Below are positions 6,654 to 27,147 of a stretch of DNA of 64,000 nucleotides, in pieces. Position numbers and translations under genes: made by a program. The notes below the pieces were generated by a model. The model saw only the letters and a program-made list of their open reading frames with translations. It did not search any database and was not told the origin of the DNA. The stretch is from Eledone cirrhosa (lineage: Eukaryota): contig OZ024747.1 in NCBI GenBank assembly GCA_964016885.1, positions 64,976,001-65,040,000 of the forward strand. Direction: 5' to 3'. The first letter of the stretch is position 1. Each line of letters begins with the position of its first letter.

Positions 6654-6656
<3 letters not shown>
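6516..6656. mobile_element. Fold-back PLE terminal-repeat derivative, family A (partial)
   Basis: Same sequence as 6202-6396 with a deletion in the right arm. Confidence 0.75.
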
Positions 6657-7268
<612 letters not shown>

Positions 7269-13971: not shown

Positions 13972-16154
13972 CTTTGAGTCTCAGTCATTGATGTTGGTTA
14001 ACTTGAAAGTTTGTTGAAATGAATATCAAGCCACTGCCTGCAGCCTCAGATATTCAGGACGTATCGGAGGGTTCTTGCTGTTCCCAACAAGCATGCCTTT
14101 TGAAGTGTTCCAAAAAGCGGGGCGGGGTCAATTTTCTTTAACCATCCCTGGAAACTCTTTGTGATAGTACCTAGTGCGCCTATGACAATCGGGACCACTT
14201 TGACATCATGGCAGTTCCAAATCCTGTTTACCTCCCACTTTAAGTCCTGGTATCGGTTAATTTTCTCCCTCTCCTTCTCTTGCACTCTCGTGTCGAATGG
14301 GCAGGCCACATCCACAATCAGGCACGATCTTTTTTCTTTGTCCACAACCACCAGGTCAGGTCTATTGTGTTCCAGTTTCTTGTCCGTCTGTATCCTAAAA
14401 TCCCACAGCACCTTCACCTGATCGTTTTCTATCACTGACTCTGGCTTATGCTCACACTACTTCTCAGAATGTGGTAAATTGTTTACTTTGCATAGATGCC
14501 AGTGGATCACCCTGCCTATCACATCAAATCTCCAGCCTTTATAGTGAGTCTGGGCTAGGTGTTTACACTCGGATACAATGTGACCCACAGTCTCCTCTCT
14601 CTCTCCACAGATCCTACACAGTTGGCTAGCCTCCTCCTTGTAAATATGGTGTTTCACCCACTTCGTTCTGAGTGCCTGCTTTTGGGCAGCCATTAGCATT
14701 CCTTCTGAAGCCTTTTTAAGGTCTCCTCTTTTTAACCAGTTCCATGTCTGTGGATCTCTAAACTCAGTTTTCTTAAAGAAGGTACTATGAAGGGATTTTT
14801 CATGAAGGTTGCTCTTCCTCCTTGTTGTTATTTCCTCCTTGGACATCCCCTGGTCTATTGTCCTCTCCTTCAGTACAATTCTGAGCATTGGCTCCCTACT
14901 GTCAGTCACGTATTTGTGCAGGTTTTTTTTCTCCATCTGAACACAGTCCTCTATGGTGATAAGACCTCTTCCACCTTCAGATCTCTTTAGGTAGAGTCTA
15001 ACGACATCACTCCTCTTGTGGAACATGTTGTAGATAGTCAATAGCTTCCTAGTCTTCCTATCCATTCCTTTTTCTTCAGCAACATTACATTTCAGAATTC
15101 CCGCACTGTACCTAATAATAGACACAGCTCGGGAATTCACTGCACTTATGGCATTCCTACTATTTAGATGTGATTTTAATACGTTCCTTACTCTCCTTAT
15201 GTACTCACATCTTATCGATTCCTTCATTTTTTTGTTCTTGATGTCATCAGCCTCCAGAACACCTAAATACTTGTATACATCTTCAGTGTCAATTTCCTTT
15301 ATCATCTCACCTGTTGGTACCTGGATTCCGTTGCTTCTGCTCAATTTACCCCTCTTCATCACAAGGACTCCACACTTACTAATACCAAATTGCATACATA
15401 TATCATTGCTGAAAATACGGACAGTGTCAACAAGTACATCCAACTCCTTCTCACTCTTCCCAAAGAGTTTAAGATCATCCATGAAGAGGAGGTGGTTAAT
15501 GGTAAGCTCTCCTTTTCCCAACTTGTATCCTGCTCTCACTTTTCGCAGTATAATGGTCAGGGGTATCAGGGCAAGGACAAACAACAGAGGGGACAAACTA
15601 TCTCCCTGGAAGATATCTCTCTTGATCTTCACGCCTCCCAAGGATTCTCCACCCGATGTTAACTCTGTTTCCCAGGACTTCATACTTTTGCTCAACAACT
15701 GTCTGATGTTATCTGCCACCTTGAAGATCTCTAGGCCTTTGGTTATCCAAGAATGAAGAACCATGTCGAATGCCTTTTTGTAATCTATCCATCCCATGGC
15801 AAGACCAGTGTGTCTCCTCTTGCAATTCCTCATTACCATCTTATCAATAAATAACTGGTCTTTTGTACCACGGGACTTCTTTCGGCATCCTTTCTGTTCG
15901 TACGGTAACAAGTTGTTTATGTGGAGGTGATGGTAGATTTCCTCAGACACAATGCTTGTTAACAGTTTCCACATTACGGACAGACATCTGATAGTTCTAT
16001 AATTGGTAACATCATTACCCTTGATTCGGTCTTTCATTACCAGACTGTGGTACCTTTTGTCAACCACTATGGTACCTCACCCGACATCAAGCAGTCATTG
16101 AAGATGGTTGTCAGTTTCGGGGGGAGGGATGTTATATTTTTGTTCCAATACCCC
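13972..16154 (-). mobile_element. 5'-truncated R4/Dong-like non-LTR retrotransposon (RT + CCHC + RLE) in (TAA)n
   Basis: RT motifs [29 protein letters not shown]; CRIC..H...C zinc knuckle; RPDL..DV..EK..Y endonuclease; (TAA)n at both ends. Confidence 0.92.
14046..16067 (-). pseudogene. RT-RLE ORF with one in-frame stop at 14457-14459
   Basis: The 536-aa and 129-aa ORFs are in the same frame, separated by TAG at the expected W of ..EK(W)xEH. Confidence 0.85.
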
Positions 16155-18086: not shown

Positions 18087-18461
18087 CGTGTGTGTGTGGA
18101 GCTTTTATTATTTTATATTTTATTCCCAATGTATATTTGTATATATATATTCACACACATACACATATATATATATTCACACACACACATACATACATAC
18201 ATACATACATACATACATACATACATACATACATACATACATACATACATACATACATACATACATACATACATACATACATACATACATCTGAAAAAGT
18301 AAATAGTAAATCTATAAATAAACCTGTATATCTAGCAATTTCTCTCTTTCTCTCTCCATATATATATATATATATATATATACATAGATACATACATATA
18401 TGTGTCGATGTGTATATATATATACATACATATCTATATATGTATGTTTATACATATATAT

Positions 18462-18968: not shown

Positions 18969-19081
18969 GGGGGGGTGTATGTATGTGTGTGCGTGTGTGT
19001 AGGTGTGTGTGTGTTTGTGTAAATATACATACACATATATATTTACACACACACACACATCTATATATATATACATATATA

Positions 19082-19749
19082 TACAAGTTAATATAAATTA
19101 ATATATTTGATAAACACTAATACCAACATTACACGGCTCAGAAATACTTCTTTCTTTGAGCTATTTCATTGTAAAGGACTGTTAGAGTTTAGAACTCGCT
19201 ATTCATAGTATCACGGCTCCTTCTGTCGAGCTAATTTTTAGCGCCATAAAAAGGGCTGTTATTTCTAGCAGCACGAGTATGAGGCGGCTAGTCACTGGAA
19301 AAACCATGTGCGTTATTCAGTCTTCTTAAATATTTTGAAGTGAAACATACCAATGTTTCAGGGTACTTGCTGAAGAGATCTGAATTTGGTATTTTTTCAC
19401 TTTTTCATTTATCGAAACATATTTGGATTTTGAAGTTTAAACTTATCTACGGAGCAGGTTTGGATTTTGAAATTTAAATGTGTCCAAGTACCACGGCCAT
19501 TTGCCAATATGATTTGTTTTTATTGATTTATTATTTTAAATCGAGACAGGCAAACTATATTATTATAATTAGTATTTTTCAATCTAGCTAACTCAGTCAT
19601 TTACAATGCAAACACGTATATGTTGGTATAAGTGTTTATCAAATATATTAATTTATACTAACTTGTATTACACGGCTCATAAATACTTCTTTCTTTGAGC
19701 TATTTCATTGTAAAGGACTGCTTGAGTTTAGAACTCGTTATTCATAGTA
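19082..19749 (+). mobile_element. Hammerhead-bearing partial-tandem element (retrozyme/PLE-like)
   Basis: About 80-bp direct repeat (19129-19210 / 19669-19749, period 540) plus about 47-bp inverted segment (19082-19128 vs 19620-19668); (TA)-rich flanks. Confidence 0.75.
19362..19492 (+). ncRNA. Type I hammerhead ribozyme with long stem III
   Basis: GGTACTTG-CTGAAGA-GAT..ATC-GAAA-CATATTT..AAATGTG-TC|CAAGTACC; 8-bp stem I, GUC cleavage triplet at 19482-19484. Confidence 0.8.
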
Positions 19750-19776
19750 CATATACATATATATATATATATTATG

Positions 19777-19872
<96 letters not shown>

Positions 19873-20051
19873 AGAGAGAAAGAGAGAAATTGCTAGATAT
19901 ACAGGTTTATTTATAGATTTACTATTTACCTTTTCAGATGTTTATATACGTATGTATGTGTAGGAGTATGTTTGTACAAATGCATGTAATATATACATAC
20001 ATATAAACAAAGATATATACAAACATATATAAACAAACATATATAAGTATG

Positions 20052-20158: not shown

Positions 20159-20370
20159 GATGTGAGAAAACCCACAGACCCTCCATCTCAACTCTACTTA
20201 TGAAAAGCAGAAGAACTGCGAAACCGGTAAAGAAACCAAATAAATATATATATATTTTTTTAAATAAGACTCCAGTTGCATTTTCGATTTCATCTTTTTT
20301 TCTTTATACTTTCACTCGTGTAGGATACCTCGGTTATTTTTCATTTTGTAAAAAAAACCTCACTTTCTAA
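20159..20370 (+). mobile_element. PLE terminal-repeat fragment (family C) with variant hammerhead at 20197-20232
   Basis: CTT-ATGAAAA-GCAG/CTGC-GAAA-CCGG-TA|AAG; homologous to the reverse complement of 47652-47796; (TA)n flanks. Confidence 0.6.
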
Positions 20371-20381
20371 TATATATATAT

Positions 20382-22400
20382 ATTATTCAAAATATTAACA
20401 AATGAAGATATTCACATAATCAAAATATATGCTTTATTATATATATTTCGAAGGTACTGTGTTGTTTTTTCAGTACCTCCTCGTCAGATGAAATATATGA
20501 TTTGATATATGACATACCTCTTCGGTCTTGATATTTCAATTCCAGTATTGGCAGTGAATTATTTCATCAAATCTCAACGTTTATATACCACAAATAATAA
20601 TATGATAAACATAAAGAAGAAAAGGACGTGGAGCGCATTAGAGAGGGTGTAAAGAGGAGGAAGGCAAGAAAAAAGAAAGAAAGAAAAAAAGAAAAAAGAA
20701 GAATAAATAACTAAATACATACATAAATATTTAAATGAATAAAAATAAATAAAAGGATGGATGAATAGAGGAAGAAGAAAGGAGAAATAACGACAAAAGA
20801 GAGGGAACATAAAATATATGTTAGGATATATAGAAAAAACCGTTGTTTTCAAATATTAGATCAATTGAGGCAACCAATCAATTACCATAAACCATTGAAT
20901 ATCTCTTGTATTTGATTATGGTTAAGCTAATTATACTTATATATTATATCAAAATTAGTCAATATACATTACTTTTAATAGCCGTTTATATTATTTTATT
21001 TAACTCATTATAAGATAATATTTTTGTATTTAAGTAATATATTCCTTAAGTATTTTAATTATTAAACATGCATTTAAAATATATATTAAAATACATGCAT
21101 ATATCACCATCAATATATATAATATATTAAGATCATTTTTTAGCCGAATTATTTTATTTGAATAGGATATTTACTTTATAAAATCATTTCTATTCTTTAA
21201 TTATCATATAATTACAGGATTAAATTGCAGTTATATTTACTCTCAAAAGTTTTATTCCGTTAATTTATATTTACTTCTGTAATTACATATTATTATAGTT
21301 TCCTTTTAAAGATATTCTTATATTATTAAACTACATAATTCATGTCAAATATAATTTAGTAAGCTATTCAAACAGAATAAAAATATTTACGAAGAATGTA
21401 AACAAAAGGAAGAAAACTCATTCACCATATGTGAACATTTAACTATTCTGAAATCTAGTGATAATTCTAAACCATAAATCAACAATTGTCAAGTTAAATG
21501 TTGAACTGTCCTAATCAAAACATAGGATACAAAGACTCTTAATGAAATTATTCTGATAAAACATCAATAAATTATTACCCCAGTAAGGCAAAAAATTAAA
21601 TATATATTTTTTTAAATTATTATTAATTGTCAATATTTTTTCGAAACTTGTACAATGCCTGGAATATGTTTACCGAATTTATGTTGGCAGCTGCTAAATA
21701 ATTCATTTTTCTTGTTAATTAAATTGTCATAATTTGTAATTATCAACAGAGTCTCAAGGTTGCAAAGATTTCAATTTAGCTAAATGGAAGCGTTCCGGTA
21801 GGAATTGGCATTCTTTAACCGAGTCCAAGAGATGGAGTATTTAATATTCTTGTCCTTCAAAGACCATATTAATTGTGAGAGTGAGGTTGAAAATTGTTTT
21901 ATCTGGATTAGAAAAAGAATTTTTATGACTGTACCAACGAACCTTAAATTTAGATGAAGTGGCACCAATGTAGTTGTATATATTATTATTTGTCTTAATG
22001 GTACATCTATATACTAGATTCTTGTCAAGGCAGTTATGTTGTAAGGGACATTCTGACTTCTTTCTACAGTTACATTTCTTCTCGATGTTATTTCCATACT
22101 CTAAACTATTCATATTATTATTATTATTTAAAGGTGTTCTACTATTATTTATATTTAAACTATTATTGTTATTCCCATAAACTAGTGTATTATTATTATT
22201 GTTGTTATTATCGCTATTTATATGCTGGTTCAAATTAAGATTTTTACTATTTATTTTTGCTATATTTTGAACAATATTCATAGTTGTTGAATAAGAGAGT
22301 TTAACTGTGTCTATTGAAGATAGAGTAATATTTATGTGATCTAAGGAAGCATTTATCCAAGGCTTTGAGAAATCAATGAACCATATTAATCTTTGGTTAT
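20382..22400 (-). mobile_element. 5'-truncated Penelope-like element (GIY-YIG C-terminus, long 3' UTR, terminal repeat)
   Basis: Coding remnant about 21640-22400: KLSYSTT..CNCRKKSECPL..CL..VY.C..YIGAT..FKVRWYSHKNSF..STSLS..W..LC.LE..IN.K.E....CQH; hammerhead near the 3' end; TA flanks. Confidence 0.88.
20433..20492 (-). ncRNA. Type I minimal hammerhead ribozyme
   Basis: TTCAT-CTGACGA-GGAGGTACTG/CAGTACCTTC-GAAA-T-ATAT-A-TA|ATAAA. Confidence 0.8.
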
Positions 22401-27052: not shown

Positions 27053-27147
27053 CAGATTAATGTTTAAGCAAAGAATCGAGCCCTCTTCGGATTTTAGTCA
27101 TCGTATTTATTAGTACAATCATTATTAATATATATATATACTATTAT

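What the first reader, a model, noticed from the sequence alone, without database searches (positions are those of the whole stretch)
19082..19749. 540-bp partial-tandem, ORF-less unit with a full hammerhead: retrozyme/circular-RNA candidate
Seen: layout a'-b ... a-b, where b (about 80 bp) is a direct repeat with period 540 and a' (about 47 bp) is an inverted copy of the sequence just before the second b. A hammerhead with an 8-bp stem I, 8-bp stem III base and GUC site lies at 19362-19492. Established: animal non-LTR retrozymes are tandem type I hammerhead units that make circular RNAs and are thought to be mobilised by PLEs. Inference: about 1.15 monomers is what reverse transcription around a circular or tandem template would leave. 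The long stem III suggests monomeric rather than dimeric cleavage.
Basis: partly seen in the sequence, partly recalled or inferred. Interest (0 to 1): 0.75.

Follow-up and report, generated by a model that had tools for sequence, protein, structure and literature searches.

The report
Hammerhead retrozyme with Penelope insertion footprint
This is one copy of an abundant 539-base non-coding repeat that spells out a conserved hammerhead motif (predicted to be a self-cutting RNA) and was likely pasted into TA repeats by a Penelope-type jumping-gene enzyme starting at two fixed points on an RNA that may have been a circle, so it is a new family of a known kind of element.

Summary
In detail: period 539 (not 540), b 83 nt, a' 47-48 nt, type I hammerhead cutting after 19484. 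It is one copy of an abundant ORF-less family with at least four subfamilies (539, 559, 525, about 500 nt) whose hammerhead covaries, including a C3-G8/U3-A8 swap. Ends are not permuted. Copies end at two fixed sites 83-84 nt apart, and b is the Penelope-type 'tail'. Of 85 two-armed insertions, 70 have one tailed and one tailless end, 1 has two tailless, 0 have two tailed, 14 unclassed. Arms run through the cleavage site without pausing (1 of 75 unselected arms stops there), so cut linear monomers are not the main template. A circle or an uncut multimer remains; the genome cannot separate them, and I have no RNA data. No autonomous partner was found in 70 endonuclease loci. This copy has a single hammerhead and cannot release a circle by itself. 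It is a new member of animal non-LTR retrozymes (non-autonomous Penelope-like elements). The scan reported this layout before on other DNA of this genome.

The parts
19082..19128 (-). Inverted, 5'-truncated, tailless arm (a'): monomer 539 back to 493; its outer end is fixed start site 1
   Evidence: joins the direct arm with a 2-nt overlap
19128..19666 (+). One full 539-nt monomer (subfamily A), start of the 622-nt tailed arm
   Evidence: tandem period in other loci
19667..19749 (+). 83-nt 'tail' (second b): the stretch between start site 1 (19666/19667) and start site 2 (19749)
   Evidence: fixed ends at monomer 84 (A), 87 (B), 66-68 (C):
19128..19163 (+). Motif copy 1 (ACGGCTC...GAGCTA, small predicted hairpin) directly 3' of start site 1; repeated at 19667-19702
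   Evidence: sequence; kept in subfamilies A-D; role inferred
19210..19233 (+). Motif copy 2 (ACGGCTC...GAGCTA) directly 3' of start site 2; lies outside the tail
   Evidence: role inferred
19245..19252 (+). TATA-like motif after GAGCTA-T-run; the same order occurs in 3 of 8 Neptune-type pLTRs (putative internal promoter)
   Evidence: function untested
19362..19492 (+). Type I hammerhead motif, 8-bp stem I, 3-bp stem II, 28-bp stem III, predicted cut after 19484
19062..19081 (.). Left TA-rich target flank
19750..19870 (.). Right (TA)n target flank

Best explanation
This is a solo copy of a non-coding, hammerhead-bearing repeat family (a non-LTR retrozyme) that was likely inserted by the reverse transcriptase and GIY-YIG endonuclease of a Penelope-like element, most likely a Neptune-type one, copying an RNA that was likely circular. 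Shown: family, tandem units, conserved ribozyme motif, TA targets, two fixed outer ends, one of each per two-armed insertion, variable inner ends, no stop at the cleavage site. Inferred mechanism: loci with two or more hammerheads are transcribed from the internal TATA-like promoter or by read-through, cut into monomers and ligated into circles. The PLE protein, probably a dimer, binds two short repeated motifs on the RNA, nicks both strands of (TA)n and primes once from each strand, at site 2 (tailed arm) and site 1 (tailless arm). The two cDNAs stop at random and are joined by short microhomology. Here that left a 622-nt tailed arm and a 47-nt inverted arm. Odds: PLE-driven non-autonomous element about 0.85; within that, circle about 0.55 and uncut multimer about 0.45.
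For: Tail/no-tail pairing in 70 of 85 two-armed insertions, both tailless 1, both tailed 0, unclassed 14; with a tail-free query 7 of 10 tail/no-tail and 0 both tailless. This matches the PLE layout (PMC8557442 Fig. 2 legend) and the two internal start sites measured for Poseidon-Ac (PMC11167929). TA flanks. Junction overlaps of 0-8 nt in 43 of 70. Hammerhead covariation. 163 of 218 arms span a cut site, 34 span two or more, 2 end within 5 nt of it. In the unselected shorter arms the stop rate at the cut is 1.5 per kb against 4.7-6.7 elsewhere. No excess of indels at the cut. All units of one insertion share a haplotype: 0.0054 vs 0.030 differences per column at common variants in A, 0.0026 vs 0.025 in B. 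Tandem units of one arm are no more divergent than opposite arms (23 vs 24 of 47 loci, p 0.57). The genome has many C-terminal GIY-YIG PLEs with intact ORFs up to 1096 codons stop to stop.
Against: No expression, cleavage or circle data. No autonomous partner: 0 of 70 GIY-YIG loci carry the unit as pLTR, and the best pLTR alignment is z 3.0 among 24 comparisons. The active fold is predicted 4-7 kcal/mol above the minimum in A, B and C, and stem II probability is about 0; slow cleavage would favour uncut multimers. For Poseidon-Ac, unprocessed RNA was the dominant substrate in vitro. Shared haplotype could reflect one subfamily being active at a time; L112 has different haplotypes in its two arms. 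Few private variants are shared by all units (13 in 10110 columns in A). Samples are the top 40 hits per search, biased to young and long copies.
Confidence: 0.75

Rival explanations
1. Same PLE-driven insertion, but the template is an uncut linear multimer read from a tandem source locus; the hammerhead is a slow or protein-dependent pLTR relic and no circle is needed.
For: Predicted misfold hides the core; hammerhead mutants did not affect Poseidon-Ac insertion in vitro; 8 of 9 predicted Xenopus retrozyme dimers did not cleave; 22 of 135 loci have two or more whole hammerheads in tandem.
Against: Each round would shorten the array (5' truncation, internal promoter, and motif 2 lies beyond the tail), yet 3-4-mers persist in subfamilies about 75% identical. 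No long source array appeared among the scored hits, though only about 40 candidates were scored per search. Same-arm units show no extra divergence. Core and stems are under evident selection.
Confidence: 0.35
2. The inverted arm arises by fold-back self-priming of one cDNA and resolution at a fixed site, not by a second priming from the other DNA strand.
For: The two inner ends lie within 20 nt of each other in 15 of 70 insertions, against 5.3 expected; self-priming was proposed for Penelope palindromes (PMC3846280).
Against: Either arm can be the longer (48 vs 22 of 70) and the one-tail rule still holds; 55 of 70 junctions are not symmetric; Poseidon-Ac extends both strands.
Confidence: 0.2
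3. The copies are truncated pLTR debris of an unsampled autonomous PLE.
For: Same order of parts as Neptune-type pLTRs here (GAGC-motif, TATA, hammerhead, two ends). One locus, L027, joins a Neptune-type 3' UTR to the unit in the same sense. Only 70 of 10597 first-look endonuclease candidates were examined.
Against: Head-to-tail monomers with no ORF between them in three subfamilies. tblastn hit 6 of 84 and 2 of 40 family loci, none running from an ORF into the unit except the ambiguous L027. Stem III is long, unlike the minimal stem III in the autonomous families.
Confidence: 0.08
4. A DNA-level repeat (minisatellite or MITE) spread by recombination, with a chance hammerhead.
For: Inverted ends and tandem units; local tandem growth by unequal crossover is proposed for retrozymes.
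Against: Fixed 3' and variable 5' ends, inverted arms of variable length, strand-specific covarying ribozyme.
Confidence: 0.02

Closest known systems
Metazoan non-LTR retrozymes (Cervera and de la Pena 2020, PMC7229834, parts 2-4 of 6 read; Li, Clavereau and Pollet 2026, bioRxiv 10.64898/2026.07.22.740005, parts 1-3 of 5 read)
   Same: Non-coding, low-GC, dispersed and tandem units with one type I hammerhead each; co-occur with autonomous PLEs; length within the 51-972 bp range of Li et al.
   Different: Longer than the 170-400 nt of the 2020 paper; 28-bp stem III; RNA not shown; no matching autonomous pLTR found; this copy has one hammerhead and so is not 'active' by the Li et al. definition.
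Insertions of endonuclease-positive Penelope-like elements (Craig et al. 2021, PMC8557442, passages; Arkhipova et al. 2013, PMC3846280, passages; Frangieh et al. 2024, PMC11167929, parts 1-2 of 4)
   Same: Partial tandem, inverted 5'-truncated copy, tail at one end only, AT or (TA)n targets, hammerhead and TATA-like motif in the repeat, two start sites bounding the tail.
   Different: No ORF; tail 66-87 nt instead of 30-40 nt; extended rather than minimal stem III.
Non-autonomous Chlamys elements such as MRC1 (PMC8557442, passage)
   Same: ORF-less PLE derivatives with pLTRs and head-to-tail multicopy insertions.
   Different: Those generally resemble an autonomous family at the 3' end; no such match was found here; different clade and host.

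Membership tests
Non-LTR retrozyme | Type I hammerhead in each unit | tested here: met
   canonical or U3-A8 core in at least 64 of 78 A, 49 of 56 B and 27 of 28 C copies
Non-LTR retrozyme | Head-to-tail tandem units of a few hundred bases | tested here: met
   family level: up to about 4 units; 22 of 135 loci with two or more whole hammerheads; this copy has one
Non-LTR retrozyme | Non-coding, GC under 50% | tested here: met
   longest ATG frame 37 aa, GC 32%
Non-LTR retrozyme | No true LTRs, primer-binding site or polypurine tract | tested here: inconclusive
   The direct repeat is a tandem overlap, not an LTR pair; PBS and PPT were not searched for
Non-LTR retrozyme | Self-cleavage of the transcript | not testable with these tools
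   folding only: active fold 4.0 kcal/mol above the minimum
Non-LTR retrozyme | Expressed as linear and circular monomer RNA | not testable with these tools
   no RNA run was available to lay on it
Non-LTR retrozyme | Autonomous PLEs in the same genome | tested here: met
Autonomous EN+ Penelope-like element | ORF with RT and GIY-YIG | tested here: not met
PLE-type insertion (non-autonomous) | Fixed 3' ends, 5' truncation, inverted 5' copy, one-sided tail | tested here: met
PLE-type insertion (non-autonomous) | AT-rich or (TA)n target | tested here: met
PLE-type insertion (non-autonomous) | Sequence similarity to the pLTR of an autonomous partner | tested here: inconclusive
   none in 70 loci; best z 3.0 of 24; shared motif order only; sample small
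PLE-type insertion (non-autonomous) | Target-site duplication | not testable with these tools
   cannot be read inside (TA)n

The most novel reading that the evidence does not exclude
The family is a self-sufficient circular-RNA parasite of Neptune-type PLEs. A duplicated short RNA hairpin sets two reverse-transcription starts, one for each subunit of the enzyme dimer and each strand of the cut target, and both copy around the same 539-nt circle. Because motif 2 lies outside the tail, long tailed arms can come only from a circle or an internal repeat, which would make these insertions a genomic record of rolling-circle target-primed reverse transcription and a minimal substrate for the unsolved PLE cycle.
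Probability: 0.3. Interest if true: 0.65.

Novelty: new member of a known kind. Interest (0 to 1): 0.33.

Why it matters
The class is known, and the retrozyme-PLE link and circular templates are already proposed in print. What this family adds is countable support: strict one-tail pairing, no stop at the ribozyme site, one haplotype per insertion, and a duplicated motif behind both start sites. A 540-nt RNA with these marks is a small, direct substrate for testing how PLE tandems, inversions and tails arise, and whether retrozyme circles are really the template.

Tried and rejected
Rfam: nothing at gathering level in the window; 12 weak, unrelated matches at E<=10. RNA runs: no RNA holder listed, so no reads were laid. 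Partner search: blastn of 50 GIY-YIG loci and nhmmer with a four-subfamily profile on 70 loci found only 6 apparently independent insertions; local alignment to 8 pLTRs was not significant. Apparent chimeras: L092, L107 and L015 read as neighbouring or nested insertions; L027 is ambiguous because its other arm is cut by another PLE. A 'nearest other locus' test was dropped as a biased minimum statistic (within-locus closer in only 28 of 86 and 9 of 28 pairs) and replaced. Exact twin-priming geometry (tailed arm stopping at site 1), as in this copy, occurs in only 4 of 70 and is not the rule. Pfam on 19 window ORFs gave RT fragments without GIY-YIG, none linked to the element. Literature searches listed no paper on this family; Repbase and Dfam could not be searched and no supplements were read (bioRxiv ones are closed), so it may already be in a repeat library.

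Full report
Observation. The layout is as described. b lies at 19128-19210 and 19667-19749 (83 nt, 95%, spacing 539), and a' at 19082-19128 is a 96% inverted copy of 19620-19667. A motif scan of both strands of the window finds the type I hammerhead at 19362-19492 with stems of 8, 3 and 28 bp and a cut after 19484. Rfam does not detect it. The monomer has no ATG frame above 37 aa and 32% GC. Both flanks are TA-rich.

Family. The window lies in a 3.0-Gb animal-type genome rich in microsatellites. Earlier AI notes call it a cephalopod; I did not test that. The unit gave 3684 first-look candidates, of which 40 were scored. Diverged relatives gave subfamilies B (559 nt, about 75% identical), C (525 nt) and D (about 500 nt, short stem III). 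Six insertions in 372 kb of loci chosen for another reason suggest tens of thousands of copies, a rough figure biased to repeat-rich DNA. I parsed 135 distinct loci of A, B and C. I dropped loci that covered the same insertion, two duplicated segments (L156, L165) and L197 (same as L027); D was left out of the end counts because no full monomer was built.

Ribozyme. On 45 distinct copies, 94.5% of cells pair, 133 cells change on both sides (0 of 500 shuffles as high; the number of pairs with such a change, 10, was not above shuffles), and slid controls pair at most 52%. Stem I has 5 of 8 covarying pairs, stem II 2 of 3. The tertiary 3-8 pair is C-G in 27 and U-A in 16 copies, a swap already described in PLE hammerheads (PMC4209133, passage). 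Stem III is highly conserved but has little two-sided change (2 of 28 pairs). The circularised monomer folds well (z -5.8 sense, -3.6 antisense, 25 shuffles).

Ends. Endpoints are not permuted. Outer ends fall at the monomer end (site 1) or at the end of b (site 2: 84 in A, 87 in B, 66-68 in C), against TA runs. Of 135 loci, 85 are two-armed, 48 one-armed and 2 unparsed. Among the 85, 70 have one tailed and one tailless end, 1 two tailless, 0 two tailed, and 14 have one end elsewhere. A query without the tail gave the same picture in 15 new loci (10 two-armed: 7 tail/no-tail, 3 no-tail/other). Either arm can be longer (48 vs 22), junction overlaps are mostly a few bases, and inner ends coincide within 20 nt in 15 of 70 against 5.3 expected. 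This is the known PLE layout with a one-sided tail (PMC8557442; PMC3846280). In Poseidon-Ac the tail was shown to be the stretch between two internal start sites, both strands were extended, and a dimer was predicted (PMC11167929). So b is the tail and a' the truncated second arm. In A, B and C both start sites are directly followed by a copy of one short motif, ACGGCTC...GAGCT (degenerate at site 2 in C). Copy 2 lies outside the tail. Its role as a start signal is inference; it may instead be a promoter element, since a similar GAGC-T-run-TATA order occurs in 3 of 8 autonomous pLTRs.

Template. A cut linear monomer could yield arms of at most 266 nt (tailed) or 182 nt (tailless) ending at the cut. 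Instead 163 of 218 arms span the cut, 34 span two or more and 7 three or more, and 2 end within 5 nt of it (biased to long copies). In the 75 shorter arms, which the searches did not select, 34 pass the cut and 1 stops within 10 nt; the stop rate there is 1.5 per kb against 4.7-6.7 elsewhere. There is no excess of indels at the cut (7, 0 and 0 gap characters in 119, 63 and 31 segments). Units within an insertion share common variants 6-10 times more than units of different loci (L112 is an exception). Same-arm units are no more divergent than opposite arms (23 vs 24 of 47, low power). A circle explains all of this and also why arrays do not shrink over time. An uncut, young multimer explains it nearly as well. 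This copy has one hammerhead and cannot excise a monomer by itself; 22 of 135 loci have two or more.

Partner. The genome gave 10597 first-look GIY-YIG candidates. [quoted passage not shown] These families also end in TA, one shows two alternative ends about 36 nt apart, and they carry hammerheads with minimal stem III. None of 70 loci has our unit as its pLTR. L027 joins a Neptune-type 3' UTR to the unit in the same sense, which could be a template switch or a deletion. The partner is therefore inferred, not identified.

Comparison. It works like a non-autonomous PLE and meets every retrozyme feature that sequence can test; cleavage and circular RNA are untested. Retrozymes as PLE passengers and circles as more-than-unit templates are proposed in PMC7229834, PMC4209133 and the 2026 preprint. 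Searches listed no paper on this family; repeat libraries and supplements were not seen. The scan's earlier notes report the same layout for several families of this genome, one a 542-nt unit with paired ends. I read them after my own counts; they are unchecked and are not independent support.

Verdict. Real, well formed, and a new member of a known kind. Interest 0.33. The circle-with-two-starts reading has probability about 0.3 and would merit 0.65.

Noticed in passing
window 18291-18358 and 19870-19937: A 68-nt inverted duplication (1 mismatch) brackets the element 1.5 kb apart; a genome search found only these two copies. Possibly a local templated repair event in the TA tract; unexplained.
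   Followed up: partly
window 20159-20383: 3' end of a Neptune-type PLE (L061 family, 91-95%) with a U3-A8 minimal hammerhead-like motif.
   Followed up: partly
window 9420 (-), 25948 (+), 26292 (-)/26378 (+), 44086 (-), 46063 (+): Six more type I hammerhead motifs with short stem III, of other families; 26292/26378 form a head-to-head palindrome and 9420 has a small inverted 5' arm.
   Followed up: partly
window 6656-7167 and 46828-47364: Two-armed inverted 3' fragments of the L067/L079 Neptune-type family.
   Followed up: partly
window 14457-16076 (-), 27129-27962 (+), 33419-36108: RT fragments without GIY-YIG (RVT_1, zf-RVT), probably LINE-type; 33419-34495 (-) and 34954-36108 (+) give the same zf-RVT score and may be an inverted pair.
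   Followed up: no
L125 and L028: Very young subfamily-A copies: the three tandem units of L125 differ at 0 sites; best substrates for bench work.
   Followed up: partly
L126: Convergent (tail-to-tail) junction between two truncated arrays, the reverse of the usual layout.
   Followed up: no
L027:459-2119: Neptune-type ORF end and 3' UTR joined in the same sense to monomer position 337; possible template switch between partner and passenger RNA, n=1.
   Followed up: partly
L112: The two arms carry different subfamily haplotypes (13% apart): two templates or two insertions.
   Followed up: partly
L067 and L079 3' UTRs: The hammerhead-like motif of this Neptune-type family reads GCAA where GAAA is expected.
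   Followed up: no
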